Below, in pieces: positions 2,024 to 61,846 of a stretch of DNA of 64,000 bases; positions within the stretch are counted from its first letter, which is position 1, and each line of letters begins with the position of its first letter. The notes beneath the pieces were generated by a model. The model made no database searches. It saw nothing but the letters and a program-made list of their open reading frames with translations, and had not been told where the DNA came from. Source of the stretch: a virus; IMG/VR virus record IMGVR_UViG_3300033145_000192, positions 96,001-160,000 of that record; one strand, written 5' to 3'. Made by a program: the position numbers and the translations under genes.

Positions 2024-3493
2024 CTATTCCTCCCTCGTGTCTCCTAGAAGAGTTGGTGTCTCTTCGTCATTCAGTCTGTCGCGAATCTGTCTGAGGTTCT
2101 GAATACTAGCAGTAATCTCTGAGTTCCTCTTGTCTTCCTTCAACCTGCACGAGCTTCGGTCGAAGTGGAAGTTAATCCAATCATCATAGTCATGCCCTGG
2201 ACCGTGGCGAGCGAGAATGACCTTCGCCATGTGGTCACCTCTCTGGGTGCCGTCCAGTTCAATCTCTTCAGGTCTCTTCTTTCTGAACAGTGTCAATGAG
2301 TCAAGATTATGACTGATTCTATCAGAACCGGCGATTGTGGATACGCTGTCCACCTTCAGTGCTTCGCGATTCAACTGTCCGAATACGAGAATTGGAATGT
2401 TCTCCTGAACTGCTAGGTCATGTAGCGCCGAGATTAGGAATCCCAGCATTTGCCACTCTGCTGCGTTCTTGAGGTCCTTCGGGTTGGACAGCTTGACATA
2501 ATCATACACGACCAGGCATCTTGGCGTTGGGCCTTTCGAACGACCAACATTTCTCCTGACGAACTTGCGAACTACTGGTATGACGTGATTAACACTTCGG
2601 CCAGCGATGTTCTTGTAGAAGAATGGTGCGTCCTTCACCTTTGCGAAGGCTTCCTTGAGTAGCTCAATTTGGTCTGGCTTTGACTTCCATGTTCCGCTCT
2701 CGATTACATCGAACGGGATGCCAGTGAGTAGCGAGCAAATCCTCATCTGTTGGTCACGAAGCAGTAGCTCGGAATCCAGATACAGGACCGGCAATTTGCC
2801 GAAGTCTGCGCTACCCTCTATGGCGACCATAGCCCCAGCATGTGCAGCGATTTGTGATTTACCAGCCTTAGCTCTGGCGAAAATACCAGTGACGGTTCCA
2901 TTCTTGATTCCGCCACAGTCTCTCTGCCATCTCTTGAAGCCGATGTCTAGCGACTGAACGAAGTCCCCATCAGCAAAGCTCTGAATGGTCTCCTCAAATG
3001 TATCTGCTAGGTTCTCTACGTCCTCCTGTCCTTCGTCTATATACTTGATGGTCTTGAAGACATTGTCCTCTACCATGTTCCTAAGTTCGAGTGGACTTCC
3101 ACTGAAGCTCTCGATGTCATCCTTTAGATAATCAAACGTGCCTATCATCTGACGCTTGATGGATGCCATCTTAATAGCGCCAACATGCTTCATTATCGCT
3201 TCGGGATTGATTGAATCTCTAGTGGCTTCTAGCGCCTCAATAAGCGCACCATTTTGTGTAGCTCCCAAGAAATCCTTCAGGCCCTTCTCTTCAGCCTTGC
3301 TAATCAGGACGTAGCTGTCCAGTTTTGTAGATGGGTCTTCGGTGACAATATCACGCATCAGCCCATAAATCATCTGGTTGCCATTGTTAGTGAAGTCATC
3401 TACGTCTAGAATGTCGTCTACTAAAAGCAGCGTATCAGGCTGCTTCAGTAGTATTGCCAATACCGCTCTCTCAGCCCCTATCGCTTGAAGCAT
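2024..3493 (-). CDS. dnaB: Replicative DNA helicase
   Basis: N-terminal AERAVLAILL, Walker A ARAKAGKS, Walker B VVYDYVKL, QLNRE motif, VILARHG. Start 3493 follows a GGAGGG RBS. Confidence 0.93.
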   Translation of the reverse strand: MLQAIGAERAVLAILLKQPDTLLLVDDILDVDDFTNNGNQMIYGLMRDIVTEDPSTKLDSYVLISKAEEKGLKDFLGATQNGALIEALEATRDSINPEAIMKHVGAIKMASIKRQMIGTFDYLKDDIESFSGSPLELRNMVEDNVFKTIKYIDEGQEDVENLADTFEETIQSFADGDFVQSLDIGFKRWQRDCGGIKNGTVTGIFARAKAGKSQIAAHAGAMVAIEGSADFGKLPVLYLDSELLLRDQQMRICSLLTGIPFDVIESGTWKSKPDQIELLKEAFAKVKDAPFFYKNIAGRSVNHVIPVVRKFVRRNVGRSKGPTPRCLVVYDYVKLSNPKDLKNAAEWQMLGFLISALHDLAVQENIPILVFGQLNREALKVDSVSTIAGSDRISHNLDSLTLFRKKRPEEIELDGTQRGDHMAKVILARHGPGHDYDDWINFHFDRSSCRLKEDKRNSEITASIQNLRQIRDRLNDEETPTLLGDTREE

Positions 3494-53595: not shown

Positions 53596-53613
53596 CTGGC
53601 ACGGGACGTGCTA
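53596..53613 (+). promoter_or_regulatory. Sigma54-like -24/-12 element
   Basis: CTGGCACGGGACGTGCTA, GG-N10-GC. Confidence 0.6.
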
Positions 53614-53836
53614 TAGGTAGGGTGGCGGCGCGGGGTCGGGTGCGACCCAAAAGCGTCCCGCTCTTTGACAATTCGGCTCATTTGCGTGTCACGGTGGGGG
53701 GCCTTGCGCCTCATTTGTGACGCACGGACCACGTCGAGAGACGTATCTGGAACCGAGACCCGCCGGAGGCTGAGACGCTTCTGACACCTACGGGGGCGGC
53801 AGGAGGGACGCAAATGAGACGGCCTTGAAACGCAAC

Positions 53837-53898
53837 GGGTCGCCCTGAAGGCAGGGAGTCGCAAATGCGACGAATCCGGTTCGAATCCGGAACGACCC
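53837..53898 (+). ncRNA. tRNA-like cloverleaf with a canonical T-loop
   Basis: GGGTCG/CGACCC closing stem, CCCTG/CAGGG arm, GTCGC/GCGAC arm, TCCGG-TTCGAAT-CCGGA. Confidence 0.55.
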
Positions 53899-53958
53899 AT
53901 GACACGTTTCACCATGCGTCTCACAGAAAGGGACGCAAATGACACGAAGGAGGAGGAG

Positions 53959-54189
53959 ATGAAACGAATGCGGCCTGTCACTGAGACGATGGCACGCATC
54001 TGCGACGAATGTGACGGGTTGGGTTTCGTTCCGCGACACTCAACTGGAACGAAAGTGACACTGGTCGAGGCGCATACGGCACAGAAATGCGACGAATGCG
54101 ACGGCTTCGGGCTGGTGGCACGCAAGCGAGACGAATCCACCCTGACTGAGACGATTCTGCGACTCAAAACCCTCTACGAAACGAACTGA
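53959..54189 (+). CDS. Small protein with two CxxCxGxG (DnaJ-type Zn finger) motifs
   Basis: CDECDGLG and CDECDGFG; GGAGGAGGAG RBS. Confidence 0.65.
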   Translation: MKRMRPVTETMARICDECDGLGFVPRHSTGTKVTLVEAHTAQKCDECDGFGLVARKRDESTLTETILRLKTLYETN

Positions 54190-54198
54190 GAGACGGAA

Positions 54199-54708
54199 AT
54201 GACACGCTTCTGGACCATTGCCCACGACGATAAGGTTTCAAATGCGTCCCACGAACACCTAACCCTTGCGTTTCACGACGATGGGACGATTGCGGTTCGA
54301 ACCAAGACCGTCTCAGAAGGGGCTCATATGCGTGACACTTACGAGTCATGCGGCTCCTACGGTCGGTGGGATACGGGTCACCGTTGGGTCGAATTCGACT
54401 CAAGCTGCACCGCATTTGACATGGCTTCGGTTGCCATGCAACGCGAGTGGAACGTAACGGTTCTCAACTGCAACGCAAGTGACTCGGATTGGGGTCACAT
54501 CAGTTTCATCGAGTGCGACGGAAACGTCACCGACCCGGATACGTTGCGCGGCATGGGACGCAACAAAGACGCGGACGCCGATGAGACGAGTGCGACACGC
54601 AAGCGGAACGGAAACAGCCTCATGCGGTTCGGCGGGTGGAACGCAACGCGGGTCGTAAATGACAAGGCTCTGGCACGAGCCAAGGCTGCCGACGCGGCAC
54701 GCAACTGA
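54199..54708 (+). CDS. Hypothetical protein
   Basis: 169 aa, directly follows the previous ORF. Confidence 0.6.
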   Translation: MTRFWTIAHDDKVSNASHEHLTLAFHDDGTIAVRTKTVSEGAHMRDTYESCGSYGRWDTGHRWVEFDSSCTAFDMASVAMQREWNVTVLNCNASDSDWGHISFIECDGNVTDPDTLRGMGRNKDADADETSATRKRNGNSLMRFGGWNATRVVNDKALARAKAADAARN

Positions 54709-54750
54709 CACGAACGGTGCTCGGGGCGGGTTCGACTCCCGCCCGTGTCA
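54706..54750 (+). ncRNA. Acceptor/T-arm minihelix-like element
   Basis: TGACAC/GTGTCA stem stacked on GGGCGGG-TTCGACT-CCCGCCC. Confidence 0.6.
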
Positions 54751-54807
54751 TTTCGGTTTCACCATACGTGCCACCCAGAGGCACGCAAACAGAACGGAAG
54801 TTTCAAA

Positions 54808-55026
54808 ATGAAGAACATTCACGACCTGCGAGACGCATTCGACACGATTCAGGCTGCGGCACGAGACGGAAAACGAGCCTGCAACGGATTTGAGACGCTA
54901 GAGGCGTCCTGCGTGTTGGACCACGATATGCTGGCCAGCATACTCCTGAGCGTTGAGGAGCAGTTGCGTCTCATTGCGGACCACGCGAACCGGAGCCTGG
55001 GACAAACCGCTATCCGAATCGACTGA
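54808..55026 (+). CDS. Hypothetical protein
   Basis: 72 aa starting MKNIHDL. Confidence 0.55.
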   Translation: MKNIHDLRDAFDTIQAAARDGKRACNGFETLEASCVLDHDMLASILLSVEEQLRLIADHANRSLGQTAIRID

Positions 55027-55052
55027 CACGCATCTGAGACGGACGGCTTCTA

Positions 55053-55081
55053 GGGTCGTAGGGTTCGATTCCTTACGACTC
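55053..55081 (+). ncRNA. T-loop hairpin
   Basis: 11-bp stem GGGTCGTAGGG/CCTTACGACTC with a TTCGATT loop. Confidence 0.6.
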
Positions 55082-55136
55082 ACTTGCGGTTCACAATCCG
55101 TGAAACGCACAACTGCCTGGTGGCAAAGGATTTAGC

Positions 55137-55730
55137 ATGAACGTCAGAAAGAACGCGCTTCGTCTCATGGTCGTCCGCAACGCAACTGAGACGGAGTTCG
55201 CTGCCCAGTTCGCCTACCGCACCGCACCGCTCGGCTCGACGGGACGCAAATGGGACGCAATGATGGACGACGGCTGGTGGAGGGGCGACGGTAACGAGTG
55301 GGTCAAGGTCTACAAGGGTATCAGTGAAACGCATTTGAGCCCGGACGACTACAACTACCTCTCGTGGGACGAAATTGACTCGATTCTGCGACGAGAGACC
55401 ATTCGGTGCGTAAGCGTGTCAACGACTCGTCTGCGGCGTGTTCGGTCTCACTTGCGTATCACCGAGGCGTCGTCCTTCGGTGGCAACGTGGCCCGCAGGG
55501 TTCGGTGGCTCAAGGACATGCGGGACGAAGCGGAGCGAAACGCATTTGAGGCGAACGTCCTGCTCTGCTCCGATATGGACCAGTTGGCCGTAACTCCCGG
55601 CGACGAGTGGGATTACACCTACAACCCCGAGACCTACGGTTGGGACCACAGCGAGCCGTCCGGGTCATTTGCGTTCCAGAACCGTGCCAGCCACGAGTTG
55701 ACCTTCGACGACATGGACGACTGCTTCTAG
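55137..55730 (+). CDS. Hypothetical protein
   Basis: 197 aa, AAGGA RBS. Confidence 0.62.
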   Translation: MNVRKNALRLMVVRNATETEFAAQFAYRTAPLGSTGRKWDAMMDDGWWRGDGNEWVKVYKGISETHLSPDDYNYLSWDEIDSILRRETIRCVSVSTTRLRRVRSHLRITEASSFGGNVARRVRWLKDMRDEAERNAFEANVLLCSDMDQLAVTPGDEWDYTYNPETYGWDHSEPSGSFAFQNRASHELTFDDMDDCF

Positions 55731-55749
55731 CAGACACGCATTGGTGACG

Positions 55750-55778
55750 GAGGCGGTAGGTTCGATTCCTGCCGTCTC
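55750..55778 (+). ncRNA. T-loop hairpin
   Basis: 11-bp stem GAGGCGGTAGG/CCTGCCGTCTC with a TTCGATT loop. Confidence 0.6.
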
Positions 55779-55833
55779 ATTTGCGTCTCAATTATGGGAC
55801 GCTTAACGGCCTGGTGGCCAAGGTGACACGCAT

Positions 55834-56073
55834 ATGAGTATCTTCCTGAACGGCGAGGCGTATGAGCAGGACATGGCCGAGACTGTCGTTGAAACGCAAG
55901 TGGAACGATACACCGGCAACTGGGAAATGAAGGACGGCAGCCAGCCCGTTGGCATGGTGACCGGAATGAGACGGAAGGACAGTTTGTCCCGTTTGCGTCT
56001 CACCGACTCCCAGGCCAAGTTCTTCCTCAGCGACACTCACTGGGATATCTACTGGGAGGTGTTCACCGACTGA
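55834..56073 (+). CDS. Hypothetical protein
   Basis: 79 aa, AAGGTG RBS. Confidence 0.6.
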   Translation: MSIFLNGEAYEQDMAETVVETQVERYTGNWEMKDGSQPVGMVTGMRRKDSLSRLRLTDSQAKFFLSDTHWDIYWEVFTD

Positions 56074-56151
56074 TACGCATTTGAAACGAACCAACGTCGG
56101 TTTGTTTCAGAGGGATAGACGGTTCGATTCCGTTTGTCTCTTTTGCGTCTC
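56074..56151 (+). ncRNA. Three-way junction element with a T-loop hairpin
   Basis: ACGCA/TGCGT closing stem, TGAAACGAACC/GGTTTGTTTCA hairpin and AGGGATAGACGG-TTCGATT-CCGTTTGTCTCT hairpin. Confidence 0.6.
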
Positions 56152-56184
56152 ACAATGAGGCGCAGCAATGCCTGGAGGCACGCA

Positions 56185-56415
56185 ATGAACACGTATCTGC
56201 TCACGGTTTGGGACGGAAGCAACGCAAATGGGCTCGGCCAGACCTACAATCTGGGGCGCAGCAACGGGCTCTACACCCCGATTCAGCAGGCTGGAACGAT
56301 TCTGGCACAGTGGCACGCAAATGGCACGAACGAGTGGACGTGCAACGATAACGGGGCGTGGGAGAACCTGGAGACGGGCCACAAGGCGCAACTGAGCCGA
56401 GTGCTGGGCCGCTAA
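56185..56415 (+). CDS. Hypothetical protein
   Basis: 76 aa starting MNTYLL, GGAGG RBS. Confidence 0.62.
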   Translation: MNTYLLTVWDGSNANGLGQTYNLGRSNGLYTPIQQAGTILAQWHANGTNEWTCNDNGAWENLETGHKAQLSRVLGR

Positions 56416-56464
56416 ACGCAAGTGAGACGAATCAACTTCTAGCCTGAAACGCAAAGGAAACGAA

Positions 56465-56689
56465 ATGCTGAAAAGTGAACTGATAGAGGAAAACAAGCGG
56501 CTGCACGATACCGTCGATTACCTTCGGTCGCAGTTGCGTCTCATACCGCACAGTCGTTTCGAGAAGTATCGGCACGCAAAGGACACGAACGAGACTCTGG
56601 CCTACCGCAAGTGCGCCCAAGAGGTAGACTCGCGCTGCCTCGCCGCACTGAGCCACGCAACTGACATACAAGACGGTTGCACCGACTAG
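56465..56689 (+). CDS. Hypothetical coiled-coil protein
   Basis: 74 aa, AAAGGA RBS. Confidence 0.6.
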   Translation: MLKSELIEENKRLHDTVDYLRSQLRLIPHSRFEKYRHAKDTNETLAYRKCAQEVDSRCLAALSHATDIQDGCTD

Positions 56690-56708
56690 GCGACACGCAT
56701 TTGAGACG

Positions 56709-56734
56709 GACCTGAGCATGTCGTTAAACTGCTC
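56709..56734 (+). ncRNA. Compact H-type pseudoknot
   Basis: GACCTGAGCATGTCGTTAAACTGCTC: S1 GAC/GTC, S2 GAGCA/TGCTC. Confidence 0.45.
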
Positions 56735-57378
56735 GGTTTCTTTTGCGTCTCACAACTGGCCAGGCCAGGGGGCAGTCTGTCTATAATGAATCAGCGAACG
56801 ACACGCAAATGCAACGTATCTTCTCTAGCAGTTACGAATGACACGCAAATGCTACGAATGCTTTCGTTTCACCATACGTCTCACGAGAATCCGCCCGAGG
56901 TGTTCACGCATAAGGAGTAAATGACACGCAAATGAGACCCACTACATATGGTATGCTATTTGTTATGACACGCAAATGAAACGCTGTTGTTCCCTACGGG
57001 GAGATTGGCATGATTCCAACACAACTAAAGGAGTTACAAATGAGACGCAAATGCAACGAGCACCTGCGCCATTCTAATACACCCCCCATATGTAGTGGGT
57101 TGGCACGCAAGAGAGACGCAACGAGCCTATGAAACGCATTTGTGACATAAAATCAATTCGTTTCACTATACGTCTCACGGAAAGCCGCCCGAGGTGTCTG
57201 GGGAGAGGGAGGAAACGCAAATGAGACGAGAGCCGCAAATGAGACAAAAGCCTCCGCTGCGCTGCGTCATGCTTCTTTTCATTTCACCTTGCAACGCATT
57301 TGTGGAGCAAGGCTACCTAAAGGCTTTACAGCGTTTCACTTACGTCTCAGATGTTGCACCGTATGTGACACGAAGACT

Positions 57379-57396
57379 TTGGCACGGGATTTGCTT
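57379..57396 (+). promoter_or_regulatory. Sigma54-like -24/-12 element
   Basis: TTGGCACGGGATTTGCTT, near-perfect consensus. Confidence 0.6.
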
Positions 57397-57488
57397 AGGG
57401 GGCGGCTGGCGGCTGGCCGACGTAACTCTATACGCCACGTCTAAGCCATTGTGCCCACTAGCTTTATGAACTCAGTGGACCTTGGGGT

Positions 57489-57506
57489 CTGGCATGGCAT
57501 TCGCTT
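57489..57506 (+). promoter_or_regulatory. Sigma54-like -24/-12 element
   Basis: CTGGCATGGCATTCGCTT. Confidence 0.45.
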
Positions 57507-57635
57507 AGTGAGACGTATCTGACCCATGACACGCATAACTCCTTTGTTTTGGCAATGAGACGTATTGTGGTGTCCAGCCGGACACTGTAGCCAAATGGAC
57601 ACCACTGGAATCATTAGAGTTACGTCAAATACCCT

Positions 57636-57653
57636 CTGGCATGGGACGTGCTA
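57636..57653 (+). promoter_or_regulatory. Sigma54-like -24/-12 element
   Basis: CTGGCATGGGACGTGCTA, nearly identical to the 53596 copy. Confidence 0.58.
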
Positions 57654-57885
57654 TAGCTTCCCTGTCGGCCAACGGCAACACGGGAGGAAAGGTAAGGTAT
57701 CACGGGGGTTACGGGTGTCATTGTGATACCCTCCCATGATACTAACCCTAGACTCGCCAGCATATTCGGGAGGTAAGCCTAACCCCTATTCGCAGGAATC
57801 GTGTCAAAACGGTCCCGAGCGAGCCATAAATGAGACGGATTGTCGCCAAAAGGCTACAGCGTCCACGCAACGGGGGGAGTTAGGT

Positions 57886-57903
57886 TTGGCATTCGGCGTG
57901 CTA
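57886..57903 (+). promoter_or_regulatory. Sigma54-like -24/-12 element upstream of the large ncRNA candidate
   Basis: TTGGCATTCGGCGTGCTA. Confidence 0.55.
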
Positions 57904-57914
57904 CTGTGTTCCGT

Positions 57915-58800
57915 AACGCTAACTTGAGAGGGTAAAGCGAGCCACTATACCGCCCCATAAACGGGATTCCGACTGATAGCGGGATAATGATTCTATCAGG
58001 GTTTTATACTAACCGGCGTTAAAAGCGTTGGACGTATTGTGGACCTTAGCACGATACGTAGGGTTCCCCTGGCGGGGAATACAAAGGTTGTATGGTCTAC
58101 TGTGCAAGGTAGCTTAAGCCATACAACCGGGGGCGGTAAGCCGAGATACTGGCTTGCTCAATGTCGTAAGACTGCCCTGTAAAAGCGACGGCGCTTGCCC
58201 AAAGTATTTAGGCTTTAACCTATAAGGTTGCGGTAGGGGTTGGAATCAGGATACCCTGAGCGAGTAGACTAGGTTAGAGTTTCTGCCATGCGGGCGACAA
58301 GCCGATTGTTAAGCGGCTCGCGTGGATAGGTTGGCAAACCTATAACCCTGTTTTGGTGGGGTATATGGTGAGCTATGGCCGACTGTTGGGAGCGTGGCGC
58401 AAGCTACGCCAGTCGGTTATCTCGCTAGTCTGTGCAAGCGGACCTTGTATATCCTTTTAATGAACGGGGCCTAGCCCGAAACGTCCGTTTCCGTTAGCTA
58501 GACACGGTTTCGCCTCTATTCGCCTATATCCGTGAGTCGTTTAGACTCGTGGGCTACCTAACTTGGTAGGTTACAGGATACCGCAAGGTCTCCCCAATAC
58601 CGTAAACCCAGGGGCCTACAGGATAGCGGGCGATTGGCGATAACACGGTCCATAATGCGTTGATACCAAGGGACTCCAAACGGAGTTATTAAATCCCGTG
58701 AACGGTTTATGCCGGAAACAATGGCTTATTAGGGCAGGGTTCAAGGGGTCATATCCCCTGGCAGGGTTTTTGCCGCCACCATTCGGGAGGCGGCTTTTTT
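57915..58800 (+). ncRNA. Candidate large structured ncRNA (about 880 nt)
   Basis: No credible ORF. At least 15 stems with G-U pairs, several GNRA loops and nested multistem junctions, bounded by a promoter motif and a terminator. Confidence 0.68.
58772..58800 (+). terminator. Intrinsic terminator
   Basis: GCCGCC-ACC-ATTC-GGGA-GGCGGC followed by TTTTTT. Confidence 0.8.
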
Positions 58801-58814
58801 CGTGGGAGTGTATC

Positions 58815-59009
58815 GTGTTCAAGTTCTCGATTCGTTCGGCTCGCTCGGGTGGCGAGACCGAGGTATTCTCAATGGTCCCGTTCTGCGGGGTCAAGGTCGC
58901 CTTGGGCGGAAACGCCCCCAAGGCAAACTGCGTCCGAAACGGCGCGGGCTACGTCTACGTGGGACGGCGCAAGCGGTCGCAAATGCGCTCAGGCCGCACG
59001 CGGGTCTAA
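58815..59009 (+). CDS. Small basic hypothetical protein (64 aa)
   Basis: GGGAG RBS and GTG start (VFKFSIRSARSGG...RTRV), in the frame of track ORF 58698..59009. Confidence 0.55.
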   Translation: MFKFSIRSARSGGETEVFSMVPFCGVKVALGGNAPKANCVRNGAGYVYVGRRKRSQMRSGRTRV

Positions 59010-59034
59010 CTCCCTCGCATTGGTATTGGTCGCT

Positions 59035-59104
59035 ATGCCACTGGCCTAAAAGTAAGGCGCTCGCCGCAAAGGCGGGAGGTATGGGTGCAAATCCCATGTG
59101 GCGT
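59035..59104 (+). ncRNA. tRNA-shaped cloverleaf with non-canonical loops (nominal anticodon CAA)
   Basis: Stems 7/4/5/5 bp, 7-nt loops, 4-nt variable loop; U8, A14, G53-C61 and U54-A58 kept; no D-loop GG, no U33, no CCA. Confidence 0.65.
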
Positions 59105-59138
59105 TTTGTTCCGTTCGTTTCTTCTACTAGGAGTGATT

Positions 59139-59420
59139 GTGTTCAAGCCCGACGAGTCCAAGGCTGAGGAAAACTCGGCCATTCTCAGGACCGAGACCGT
59201 TCCCGGTATCGGTTCGGTTCTCGTGTTCACCGACAGCGCGGCGCGTGACGCATACGGCAAGTATGTGGAGCCCGAGGGTTTCGCGGACGAGGGTTCGTTC
59301 GAGGAAATTCTCTTCGACAAGCACGGGGAAATGGTGCTCACCTACCGCGACGACCCCCGTGGTATCGACGAGTATCTGGAGGAGCCCGCAATGGTGACTC
59401 GGTTCTGGGGTCGCAAGTAG
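59139..59420 (+). CDS. Hypothetical acidic protein
   Basis: AGGAG RBS and GTG start (VFKPDESK...). Confidence 0.6.
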   Translation: MFKPDESKAEENSAILRTETVPGIGSVLVFTDSAARDAYGKYVEPEGFADEGSFEEILFDKHGEMVLTYRDDPRGIDEYLEEPAMVTRFWGRK

Positions 59421-59460
59421 CGGGACCAATACTCCCGCAAACCTAGCCTGCTCGGGCTAT

Positions 59461-59545
59461 CCGCGATAACTGAGCGGCTGGGCTACGCTTTACGAGGGGA
59501 AGGGAATGATAGCTCCCTACTCGGGTTCGACTCCCGAGATTGCGG
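59461..59545 (+). ncRNA. tRNA-like cloverleaf
   Basis: CCGCGAT/ATTGCGG acceptor, AGCG/CGCT D-like arm with TGG, AGGGA/TCCCT arm, TCGGG-TTCGACT-CCCGA; followed by T5. Confidence 0.58.
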
Positions 59546-59648
59546 TTTTTCGGTTTGTTTCGTCTCACGTTGGGACGATTTTGAGACGGAGTGTAGCCCG
59601 CTGGAAACAGTCGGGCTTGCTTTGTTTCGGAAGCAAACGAGTTACGCT

Positions 59649-59666
59649 TTGGCACGTCGGGTGCTA
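59649..59666 (+). promoter_or_regulatory. Sigma54-like -24/-12 element
   Basis: TTGGCACGTCGGGTGCTA, about 55 nt upstream of ATG 59722. Confidence 0.6.
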
Positions 59667-59721
59667 TAGGTTGGTCGTCAAGTTCAACCGAATGTAGCAA
59701 GCACAAGGGAGGGAGGGGCAT

Positions 59722-60432
59722 ATGAAACGTCGCAAGCGCAGCGGGCGAACGACTCACAAACGGGCGTGGCATAGCGCGGCGAAAGCCCCCCGTGGCAAGC
59801 CGTGGGCAAAGGTCGATACCTTGCTGGAACGGCTCAAGGCAGAGCACAGTTTCAAGGCTATGGCTCTCCCCGTGTTTCAGACGCTCTGGACACTCCAGCG
59901 TGACAACGGCTGGAAGGGAAACGCTGTTACCCAGTTCGTTTGGGAGCAGTATCGTCGGCGCACGGAGTATATGCCCTACGTCCGGGACGGCCTGGATATG
60001 GGGGACGTGCTCGCTGCGGTAGACGGGCAGGCTTTCCCCAACTGGCTTGACGCATACGCTGAGAAGCACGGTTCGGGCCAGCGCAAGTATGGGGAGTCAA
60101 AGGGAGAGATTATCCCTGAGACGAAACCTACTCGGTTCAAGGTCCGTGGAAAGCCCAAGCCCAAGGTTGAGGCTCCCAAGGTCGAAACCCAGGCAGAGCG
60201 GTGGAAGCGTATCGGAGACGAGCGGCGAGCGGAAAACGCCACGGCTGAGGAACAGTCGGGTATCCGCCAGAAAGCCTGGCTCCGCGACAGAGACATTGAG
60301 GACATTTGGCGACTCATATCCAAGGGAGAGTTTCCCCTGGGGACCGTCGCTTTTGACGCAGAACTGAAACGGCGTGCAAACGAGCGGGAACAGGCCCGAC
60401 AGCACGCGGTTTTGTTCGACCACGGGCGGTAG
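59722..60432 (+). CDS. Hypothetical basic protein
   Basis: 236 aa, GGGAGGGAGGGG RBS. Confidence 0.7.
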   Translation: MKRRKRSGRTTHKRAWHSAAKAPRGKPWAKVDTLLERLKAEHSFKAMALPVFQTLWTLQRDNGWKGNAVTQFVWEQYRRRTEYMPYVRDGLDMGDVLAAVDGQAFPNWLDAYAEKHGSGQRKYGESKGEIIPETKPTRFKVRGKPKPKVEAPKVETQAERWKRIGDERRAENATAEEQSGIRQKAWLRDRDIEDIWRLISKGEFPLGTVAFDAELKRRANEREQARQHAVLFDHGR

Positions 60433-60451
60433 AACCGCCATAGGAGTTTTC

Positions 60452-61102
60452 ATGGCAAAGGCCAAGTTCGATTTCATTGGTATGGTCATGGACGCTCCCG
60501 AGGACCAGCGGGCTGGTATGTTGGAGCAAATGGCCAACATGACCAGCACCCCGGTTTCCGAGCTTTCGGAGCAGTTGGACAGCCGACTGAACAAGCGGAA
60601 GGAAACTGAGGAGCAGAAGGCTCGACGTTTGGAGCGCGAGGAGCGTAACAAGCGGGTCGAGACTGTTACCGCTACGGTGGAGTCGCTGCGCGACGATATC
60701 GACGGTCTGCGGGTGGCGTTCGAGGAGGTTTCGGAACTGGAGGGGCAGATTGTCCTGAGCGGTTTCGACAGCGATACCCTCGTGTTCACGGTCGGCGGGC
60801 TCAAGGTGAGCAAGCGTGGTGGCGGAACTGGCGGCGGAAAGCCTGCCGCGAATCAGCCGCGCCCCTACGTTTCGGACGGCGAGCGTATCTTGGGCCAGTT
60901 GCCCAAGTGGGCTGAGGAAAACGTCGGCCTGGCTGAGTTGGAGGAGCTTTCCGAGGAGCACGAGATTGACCTTTCGTATTCCGCAAAGACGGGCAAGCTC
61001 GGTTCCAAGAATCTCGCCAAGTTGCTGCTCAAGGCAGAGCTTATCGAGAAGAGCGAGGTAACTGCTGAGGAGCAGGCCGCGTTCGAGGCGACTCGGGACT
61101 AA
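60452..61102 (+). CDS. Hypothetical protein: coiled-coil N-terminus, Gly/Lys linker, C-terminal domain
   Basis: AGGAG RBS, 216 aa starting MAKAKFDF. Confidence 0.72.
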   Translation: MAKAKFDFIGMVMDAPEDQRAGMLEQMANMTSTPVSELSEQLDSRLNKRKETEEQKARRLEREERNKRVETVTATVESLRDDIDGLRVAFEEVSELEGQIVLSGFDSDTLVFTVGGLKVSKRGGGTGGGKPAANQPRPYVSDGERILGQLPKWAEENVGLAELEELSEEHEIDLSYSAKTGKLGSKNLAKLLLKAELIEKSEVTAEEQAAFEATRD

Positions 61103-61144
61103 CAAGGTCCAATGCGCTGGCATACCGCCTCATAGTATGCCGCT

Positions 61145-61192
61145 GCCTTATCTCCGACTGGCGGGGTTTACGGGTCCGACTCCCGATAAGGC
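61145..61192 (+). ncRNA. Minimal three-arm tRNA-like element
   Basis: GCCTTAT/ATAAGGC acceptor, CTCCG/CGGGG arm and CGGG-TCCGACT-CCCG. Confidence 0.5.
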
Positions 61193-61195
61193 TGT

Positions 61196-61278
61196 CGTTG
61201 CTGGTCTAGTAGAATGACGCCCGCTATCAAAGAGCATAGCTCTTATGCGGGAGATATGGGTTCATGTCCCATGCAACG
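61196..61278 (+). ncRNA. tRNA-like cloverleaf with an elongated anticodon arm
   Basis: CGTTGC/GCAACG acceptor, D-arm GTC-TAGTAGAAT-GAC, CCCGC/GCGGG stem extended by AAGAGC/GCTCTT, ATGGG-TTCATGT-CCCAT. Confidence 0.6.
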
Positions 61279-61362
61279 CGCTACACAAGCCAGTAGGTAG
61301 AACCCCGCGTGGGGTATCACGCCGTATGGCTGTTTCTTTCACTCCAGCAAATAGGAGGGCAA

Positions 61363-61569: not shown

Positions 61570-61846
61570 ACAGCCTCAGTTTGTAGGCGGCGCGGGAATG
61601 GGGGTTTCAAGTATAGGCTGGCCCCCTCGCCCCGTATTCCCTGGGGAGGGTAAAGAATCCATGCGTATCAGGGCTGTTTGAACGGGGGGCTTCGGCCCCC
61701 TTCGTAATGTAGCTAGGCAGTTTGTGCGGCGCACCATGTCGGAATTGGATTGGGTGCGAGCGTATTGCGCGTGAATGGGGCGCATACAATACAAACTCTC
61801 TAACGGTCCCAAGCCCGTGTAAATACAGAGGGAGGAAGGAATAACC

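What the first reader, a model, noticed from the sequence alone, without database searches (positions are those of the whole stretch)
53837..61278. About ten tRNA-like or T-loop RNA elements punctuate the early genes
Seen: nearly every spacer carries a hairpin with a T-loop (TTCGAAT, TTCGACT, TTCGATT, TGCAAAT, TCCGACT, TTCATGT), at 53875, 54724, 55053, 55750, 56111, 59081, 59521, 61171 and 61256. They range from bare T-hairpins through acceptor-T minihelices to full cloverleaves, and none is a canonical tRNA with CCA. Known: RNase P and RNase Z recognise the acceptor/T-arm, mitochondria use tRNA punctuation to cut polycistronic RNA, and phage tRNAs can counter anticodon-nuclease defences. Inference: a system of tRNA mimics for transcript processing or stabilisation, or decoys for tRNA-targeting immunity.
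Basis: partly seen in the sequence, partly recalled or inferred. Interest (0 to 1): 0.85.

Follow-up and report, generated by a model that had tools for sequence, protein, structure and literature searches.

The report
tRNA-like cut marks between phage genes
Nine small RNA folds that copy the top half of a tRNA sit between the small genes of an uncultured phage; a relative has a self-cutting ribozyme in one of the same gene gaps, so the folds most likely tell the host's tRNA-trimming enzymes where to cut the long message into single-gene pieces.

Summary
Confirmed: nine T-loop hairpins (0.12 expected), all intergenic and on the + strand of a 177-kb phage. Eight have orthologues in a relative at 84% identity: of 129 base pairs, 17 are kept by changes on both sides and 5 break (null 2 and 35). 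None has a conserved canonical anticodon. Missing CCA means nothing, since 0 of 41 ordinary tRNA genes of this phage encode it. Distant relatives fill the same gaps differently. One swaps the loop for AGCGUAA, a T-loop of real viral tRNA genes. Another has a GNRA hairpin plus a complete type III hammerhead cutting 61 nt before the start codon; elements E1-E4 end 54-58 nt before it. A twister ribozyme fills the next gap. Best reading (0.62): host RNase Z, perhaps with RNase P, cuts there, leaving single-gene mRNAs with hairpins at both ends. No cut is shown, no reads were obtained, and the host is unknown. Anticodon-nuclease decoys are unlikely. I found no paper on such elements in phages, but this scan has reported the same kind, ribozyme swap included, in about a dozen other genomes.

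The parts
53837..53899 (+). E1: compact cloverleaf (6-bp acceptor plus one mismatch, two short arms with 4-nt loops, 5-bp T-stem, discriminator A) in the operon leader; no anticodon loop
   Evidence: three double changes in the acceptor against phage B; the two small arms are invariant, and one is a palindromic copy of the DNA array motif; T-loop element also in this slot of phage F (L032:305-341)
54706..54750 (+). E2: 7-bp acceptor beginning at the upstream stop codon, 12-nt GG-containing linker, 6-bp T-stem
   Evidence: three double changes; weak Rfam mascRNA match, E=4
55053..55082 (+). E3: continuous 11-bp hairpin with T-loop (minihelix-like), followed by hairpins at 55086-55108 and 55114-55125 and the RBS
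   Evidence: the same slot in phage F is a 12-bp hairpin with an AGCGUAA loop (L032:1067-1097)
55750..55779 (+). E4: continuous 11-bp hairpin with T-loop, followed by hairpins at 55783-55802 and 55808-55819 and the RBS
   Evidence: four double changes; the same slot in phage E is a GNRA hairpin plus a type III hammerhead (L031:1574-1655)
56082..56143 (+). E5: 10-11-bp hairpin (56082-56109) stacked on a 13-14-bp T-loop hairpin (56110-56143), followed by hairpins at 56144-56164 and 56170-56179
   Evidence: phage E has a 15-bp hairpin without T-loop here
59035..59105 (+). E6: full tRNA shell with variant elbow (G55 T-loop, AG instead of GG in the D-loop) and a non-conserved, non-canonical anticodon loop; U-rich trailer
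   Evidence: with phages B, C and E9: 98.7% of cells paired, 11 of 20 pairs with double changes
59461..59546 (+). E7: degenerate cloverleaf ending a transcription unit (U-tract, then a sigma54-like promoter at 59650); weakest case, two acceptor pairs broken in phage B
61119..61193 (+). E8: D-armless three-way junction (6-7-bp acceptor, one variable arm, 4-bp T-stem; 61145-61193) behind a conserved hairpin (61119-61141)
   Evidence: fold kept in phages B, C, D; loop is canonical in B, AGCAUAA in C, UCCGUAA in D
61196..61279 (+). E9: E6-like shell with a hairpin inserted in the anticodon arm and A58 lost; absent from phage B
61699..61839 (+). Type-P1 twister ribozyme with an 89-nt P3 insertion, filling the next spacer; predicted cut after 61705
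   Evidence: Rfam E=0.0025, below gathering; all core elements located and conserved in phage B with changed P1
53600..57400 (.). Array of an 11-bp-period 14-nt DNA motif, both orientations, through genes and spacers; copies flank E2-E5
   Evidence: 41 of 57 genome-wide close matches lie in 2.3% of the genome
53597..53612 (+). sigma54-like promoter motif upstream of E1 (others at 57380, 57490, 57637, 57887, 59650)
   Evidence: conserved in phage B; consensus match only

Best explanation
The elements are RNA processing signals (phage t-elements). Shown: they are + strand RNA structures under selection for an acceptor/T-arm fold, not for decoding, and they sit just after stop codons. Inferred: the host's CCA-less tRNA maturation enzymes, which the phage already needs for its 41 CCA-less tRNA genes, read the T-loop and the roughly 12-bp stack. 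RNase Z cuts 3' of the discriminator. The upstream mRNA then ends in a stable hairpin, and the downstream mRNA starts 0-5 nt before a second hairpin, 41-58 nt ahead of its start codon. RNase P may also cut 5' and release the element, most plausibly for the cloverleaf shells E1, E6, E7 and E9. The result is single-gene messages with protected ends, the job done by hammerhead and twister ribozymes in equivalent gaps.
For: Enrichment 9 vs 0.12, strand-specific. Against phage B: 129 pairs, 51 substitutions, 17 double changes kept, 5 broken; simulation gives 2.0 and 34.8, none of 20000 runs as extreme; 26 G-U against 2 C-A cells, so + strand RNA. T-loop positions 54-58 change once in 40 (P about 0.01). 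E6 shell is kept in phage C with a fully replaced acceptor. Phage F keeps a T-loop in the E1 slot and has AGCGUAA on a 12-bp stem in the E3 slot; 42 of 84 viral-contig hits of that loop are tRNA genes, 41 with U33 and 30 with CCA. Phage E has a complete type III hammerhead before the g5 homologue and a second one downstream, both cutting 61 nt before the ATG, against 54-58 nt for E1-E4 and 53 nt in phage F; predicted downstream products have the same two-hairpin layout. Twister in the next spacer. No phage RNase P RNA, RNase Z-fold protein, RNase III or CCA enzyme found. [quoted passage not shown]
Against: No RNA end was observed and the host is unknown. The ribozyme swap rests on one contig and one strictly matching gap; neither hammerhead reaches Rfam's gathering score or was assayed. 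The E5 slot of phage E has a hairpin with neither T-loop nor intact ribozyme, phage F has no hairpin before g5, phage D's E8 loop lacks the U54-A58 pair, and the window's own module at 56694-56749 has a hairpin without T-loop, so cutting is not needed at every gap. Stems of E3-E5 are 11-14 bp, not a strict 12. E9 is absent from phage B and E7's acceptor has two broken pairs there. I drew the helices while seeing both sequences, so the simulated null is generous, and one E2 double change also moves both strands to the DNA array consensus.
Confidence: 0.62

Rival explanations
1. Uncut stabilisers: the hairpins block 3' exonucleases or insulate ribosome-binding sites, and the T-loop is a favoured cap or a landing site for an elbow-binding protein.
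For: Hairpins persist without T-loop in phage E and at window 56694-56749; all lie right after stop codons.
Against: A plain stabiliser needs no T-loop, yet the loop is conserved while stems turn over and is swapped for another tRNA T-loop. Where phage E has a GNRA cap before g5, it also has a ribozyme.
Confidence: 0.15
2. Decoys for tRNA-targeting defence: the RNAs, free or excised, titrate enzymes that read the T-loop, elbow or CCA end.
For: Such enzymes exist: Cash cleaves a UUC motif in T-loops (PMC13462974); Cas12a3 binds T-arm and acceptor and cuts CCA tails (PMC12851939). The phage carries RNA repair genes (two RNA ligase matches, PNK3P, RlaP), a hint of tRNA conflict.
Against: No conserved canonical anticodon loop, so PrrC-, RloC- or AriB-type enzymes are poor targets (PMC12409363). 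One copy per gap inside mRNA, interchangeable with a ribozyme, fits a cis role. A cleavable decoy inside mRNA would damage the phage's own message. The phage has 41 real tRNAs.
Confidence: 0.1
3. Decaying tRNA genes with no present function (applies mainly to E6, E7, E9).
For: E9 has lost A58 and is absent from phage B; E7's acceptor has two broken pairs in B; the genome is rich in tRNA genes.
Against: E6 keeps all four stems through many double changes in three phages while only its anticodon loop drifts; E2-E5 are not truncated tRNAs but regular spacer modules with covarying stems.
Confidence: 0.07
4. DNA-level features: by-products of the palindromic array motif, or recombination (att- or attC-like) sites for gene shuffling.
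For: E1's third arm and E2's acceptor are built from array-motif copies; A/B similarity breaks off at the E1 3' end, resumes at E2, and E9's indel starts right after E8.
Against: G-U pairs on the + strand only; T-stems covary outside the motif; E6-E9 lie outside the array; no tyrosine integrase found; the g2 genes of A and B are diverged homologues, not swapped cassettes.
Confidence: 0.06

Closest known systems
t-elements of plant mitochondria (Forner et al. 2007, PMC1920247)
   Same: Non-canonical cloverleaves and acceptor-like stem-loops with a perfect T-arm, next to genes, without decoding role; ends coincide with mRNA ends, attributed to RNase Z and RNase P.
   Different: Organellar, with mapped ends. 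Here a dsDNA phage, one element per gene gap, down to bare 11-14-bp T-hairpins, no ends mapped.
Clustered hammerhead ribozymes flanking single genes in prophages (Perreault et al. 2011, PMC3088659)
   Same: One cut signal per gap among small unknown genes; a relative of this phage has two type III hammerheads in such gaps, and this phage has a twister in one.
   Different: E1-E9 have no catalytic core and would need host enzymes.
RNase III processing of the T7 early transcript (PMC4858673)
   Same: A host nuclease cuts a polycistronic early RNA at intergenic structures into mono- and dicistronic mRNAs.
   Different: RNase III reads long double helices; these elements carry tRNA T-loops and acceptor geometry.
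RNase P model substrates (AT1 hairpin) and phage P1/P7 C4 precursor (PMC11143913)
   Same: [quoted passage not shown]
   Different: The model substrates carry the 3' RCCA that pairs with the RNase P RNA; these elements have none. C4 is a trans-acting antisense RNA.
mascRNA/menRNA (Rfam RF01684)
   Same: Small tRNA-like fold without functional anticodon inside a long transcript (own knowledge: cut out by RNase P and Z).
   Different: Vertebrate nuclear RNA; the E2 match is far below the family cut-off (22.7 vs 42.5 bits).

Membership tests
Functional tRNA gene | Four-arm cloverleaf | tested here: not met
   Only E1, E6, E7, E9 have four arms; E2-E5 and E8 do not
Functional tRNA gene | 7-nt anticodon loop with U33 and a conserved anticodon | tested here: not met
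   E6 has G33, a 6-nt loop in B and a GAAA tetraloop in C; E1 4-nt loop; E9 carries an insert; 39 of 41 true tRNAs of the genome have U33
Functional tRNA gene | Encoded CCA (not defining in this genome) | tested here: inconclusive
   0 of 41 canonical tRNA genes encode CCA
t-element (tRNA-like processing signal) | Conserved T-arm on an acceptor-like stem, no decoding | tested here: met
t-element (tRNA-like processing signal) | Located at gene boundaries on the transcribed strand | tested here: met
   the first element of each spacer starts -3 to 42 nt from the stop codon, all + strand
t-element (tRNA-like processing signal) | Transcript ends map to the element's 5' or 3' end; cleavage by RNase P or Z | not testable with these tools
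Self-cleaving ribozyme (hammerhead, twister) | Catalytic core | tested here: not met
   No hammerhead core in E1-E9 or their spacers in A, B, C, D, F; cores present only in phage E and in the separate twister
Intrinsic terminator | Hairpin followed directly by a U-tract | tested here: inconclusive
   U-rich trailers after E2, E6, E7 only; terminator-like sites 14 vs 11.4 expected; not met for E1, E3-E5, E8, E9
Anti-defence tRNA of the T5/PARIS type | Translating tRNA with the targeted anticodon and a cleavage-resistant anticodon arm | tested here: not met
   No conserved canonical anticodon; target described in PMC12409363
Integron attC or tRNA-derived att site | Cognate tyrosine recombinase and repeated identical core | tested here: not met
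   No PF00589 match; stems differ between copies
mascRNA/menRNA | Rfam score above gathering | tested here: not met
   22.7 vs 42.5 bits

The most novel reading that the evidence does not exclude
Phages convert an ordinary intergenic hairpin into a host-enzyme cut site just by capping it with a tRNA T-loop, and trade this with hammerhead ribozymes inside one conserved three-hairpin spacer, so a bare 11-14-bp T-hairpin is a natural minimal RNase Z substrate in bacterial mRNA. The excised or CCA-tailed pieces may also titrate T-loop- or CCA-directed defence enzymes.
Probability: 0.35. Interest if true: 0.75.

Novelty: new variant of a known kind. Interest (0 to 1): 0.55.

Why it matters
tRNA punctuation of mRNA is established for organelles; my literature searches found no description of it between phage genes, and the role of self-cleaving ribozymes in phage operons is still called open (PMC6765202). 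This locus gives a cheap test of both: matched spacers in which a T-loop hairpin, a variant T-loop and a hammerhead replace one another, with predicted cut positions a few bases apart. If true, host tRNA maturases are general phage mRNA-processing enzymes and 30-nt T-hairpins are portable processing parts. Novelty within this scan is low: the same kind has been noted in about a dozen other genomes.

Tried and rejected
No relatives found in viral or metagenome collections with g12 or its alignment, a module pattern or a 19-mer; the five metagenome hits of the 19-mer were chance. No cultured phage is close: terminase 26-29% to Bacillus phages, region blastn empty. Host not identified: RF1-like search gave uninformative hits. 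The ten genes of the region have no family apart from a weak zinc-finger match in g1. No TROVE/Ro60 or RtcB in the genome, so a Y-RNA partner or RtcB link has no support. Gene-cassette swapping between E1 and E2 rejected: g2 is homologous in A, B and F. DNA for two distant g12 homologues was unavailable and one was not on record. Ten literature searches found no paper on phage intergenic t-elements or on the A54-U58 T-loop; Fremin et al. 2023 (PMC10690425) list viral tRNA-like candidates without function. The library lacks most subscription papers. No covariance model was built: too few independent orthologues.
Full report
Setting. The window is bases 96001-160000 of a complete 177,375-base phage contig. 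The genome carries over 40 ordinary tRNA genes and a tmRNA about 100 kb away, a terminase and portal, and no close cultured relative. The finding lies just right of the strand switch near 52 kb, among small genes of no known family. Sigma54-like promoter motifs lie at 53597, 57380-57887 and 59650. 'Early' is plausible but untested, and the host is unknown.

Observation. A scan for 7-nt T-loops closed by G-C on stems of at least 4 bp finds nine on the + strand of 53.8-61.3 kb and none on the - strand; shuffles give 0.12, at most 2. I call them E1-E9. They fill the operon leader and 7 of the 8 spacers of 90-310 nt; short spacers have none. They form a series: bare 11-14-bp hairpins (E3, E4, E5), acceptor plus linker plus T-arm (E2), a D-armless junction (E8), a compact cloverleaf (E1) and full shells (E6, E7, E9). 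ARAGORN and Rfam call E6 a tRNA, but it has G33 where 39 of 41 true tRNAs of the genome have U33. The absence of CCA says nothing: none of those 41 genes encodes it.

Covariation. Cluster look-ups gave a relative, phage B (L002, L008; 84% identity). Eight elements have orthologues; E9 is missing. Of 129 pairs, 95 are unchanged, 12 keep pairing by one change, 17 by changes on both sides, and 5 break. Placing the same 51 substitutions at random with the region's spectrum gives 2.0 double-kept and 34.8 broken pairs; none of 20000 runs came near. There are 26 G-U cells and 2 C-A cells, so the structure is + strand RNA. T-loop positions 54-58 change once in 40 (P about 0.01). Caveats: I drew the helices seeing both sequences; E1's two small arms never vary and one is a palindromic copy of the DNA array motif; two of the five breaks are in E7's acceptor. 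E6 is also in a distant phage C (L012) with a fully replaced acceptor and a GAAA loop in place of the anticodon; with E9 as fourth row, 98.7% of cells pair and 11 of 20 pairs show double changes. Selection is on the shell and elbow, not on decoding.

Distant relatives. Phage F (L032; g2 42%, g4 38%, g5 48% identical) keeps an acceptor/T-arm with a canonical T-loop in the E1 slot, ending 53 nt before the start codon. In the E3 slot it has a 12-bp hairpin capped by AGCGUAA. Phage C has the near-identical AGCAUAA in the E8 slot. I tested whether AGCGUAA is a T-loop: of 84 distinct viral-contig hits, 42 are ARAGORN tRNA genes, 41 with U33, 30 with CCA and 41 with AG instead of GG in the D-loop. 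So one tRNA T-loop replaces another at the same gap, which a plain stabilising hairpin would not require. E6 shows the same pairing of G55 with an AG D-loop.

Phage E (L031; g5 50% identical) has no T-loop element. The gap before g5, the E4 slot, holds a 12-bp GNRA hairpin followed by a complete type III hammerhead (GUC site at 1605, 6-bp stem I, intact core, 4-bp stem II, 5-bp stem III). A second hammerhead lies at 2303-2360 (Rfam E=4e-4, below gathering). The same pattern finds none in either strand of the 177-kb genome or in B, C, D, F. Both would cut 61 nt before the next ATG; E1-E4 end 58, 57, 54 and 54 nt before theirs, E5 41 nt. The RNA left downstream has the same layout for E3-E5 and both hammerheads: a hairpin at or within 3 nt of the new 5' end, a second short hairpin, then the ribosome-binding site. 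In the window, the one long spacer without a T-loop holds a type-P1 twister with an 89-nt insertion, conserved in B. Against a strict rule: E's E5 slot has a 15-bp hairpin with no T-loop or ribozyme, F has no hairpin before g5, D's E8 loop lacks the U54-A58 pair, and window 56694-56749 is a module without T-loop.

Mechanism. Shown: conserved + strand acceptor/T folds after stop codons, no decoding, exchangeable with another T-loop and, at one matching gap, with a ribozyme. From the literature: RNase P, tRNase Z and the CCA enzyme accept acceptor/T minihelices (PMC3714273); RNase Z handles CCA-less precursors through the elbow (PMC4810234); RNase P cleaves acceptor/T hairpins and is impaired by tetraloop replacement (PMC11143913). 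The phage's CCA-less tRNAs need such host enzymes, and no phage-encoded versions were found. Inferred: a 3' cut by RNase Z at each element, leaving the upstream message with a 3' hairpin and the downstream message with a 5' hairpin, as the hammerhead would. RNase P may excise the fuller shells. I put this at 0.62. Uncut stabilisers get 0.15. Decoys get 0.10: anticodon nucleases are poor candidates (PMC12409363), but T-loop and CCA-directed effectors exist (PMC13462974, PMC12851939) and the phage has RNA repair genes. Decayed tRNAs get 0.07 and DNA-level explanations 0.06.

Comparison and novelty. It works like plant mitochondrial t-elements (PMC1920247), prophage hammerhead arrays (PMC3088659) and T7 RNase III punctuation (PMC4858673). 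It meets the structural and positional criteria for t-elements; the defining test, mapped ends, could not be run. It fails the tests for functional tRNA, ribozyme, mascRNA and att site. No Rfam family other than tRNA (E6 only) passes its cut-off and I found no paper on it in phages. Earlier agents of this scan reported the same kind, including the ribozyme swap, in about a dozen other genomes; these are unchecked notes and not independent evidence. What this locus adds is the graded series in one region, the bare T-hairpin class, the T-loop-for-T-loop swap and the matching cut-to-start distances. Verdict: real, a new variant of a known kind, interest 0.55.

Noticed in passing
window 61699-61839 (+); L008:4961-5099: Type-P1 twister ribozyme with an 89-nt P3 insertion, missed at Rfam's gathering threshold, conserved in phage B with altered P1.
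   Followed up: yes
L031:1599-1655 and 2303-2360 (+): Two type III hammerheads whose stem III and GUC site are built from inverted copies of the DNA array motif; the hairpins after E3-E5 look like their stems I and II without the core.
   Followed up: partly
L033-L132 (viral contigs): AGCGUAA (A54, G55, U58) is the T-loop of many full viral tRNA genes, mostly tRNA-Asp(GUC) and tRNA-Met, with AG in place of GG in the D-loop; no paper found.
   Followed up: partly
window 53600-57400; L002, L031, L032: Dense 11-bp-period DNA motif array in both orientations, through coding and non-coding DNA, conserved in distant relatives; probably a protein-binding array.
   Followed up: partly
window 57900-58800; L008:1350-2240; L012:1-1000: About 900 nt without a credible gene, highly conserved in phage B and partly in C, ending in a terminator; no Rfam match. 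Candidate large non-coding RNA.
   Followed up: no
window 53597, 57380, 57490, 57637, 57887, 59650; genome 160694: Cluster of sigma54-type promoter motifs: 7 of 12 genome-wide matches lie in 11 kb, all on +.
   Followed up: partly
genome 160387-160516, 167260-167335, 173030-173125, 7507-7661, 24125-24207: Further tRNA-like shells with T-loops outside the window, some with large inserts; the family extends beyond the finding.
   Followed up: no
genome 27676-27747, 41649-41722, 42357-42430: Several tRNA-Leu genes only 72-74 nt long, that is without the long variable arm usual for tRNA-Leu.
   Followed up: no
L016, L017, L018, L021: RNA repair and host-like genes: two RNA ligase matches, PNK3P, RlaP, PARP with WGR, peptide deformylase, IMPDH/GMP reductase, L7/L12-like, sigma70.
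   Followed up: no
L012:4494-4740: Three consecutive tRNA-like elements with T-loops in phage C, in the region matching the twister and downstream genes.
   Followed up: no
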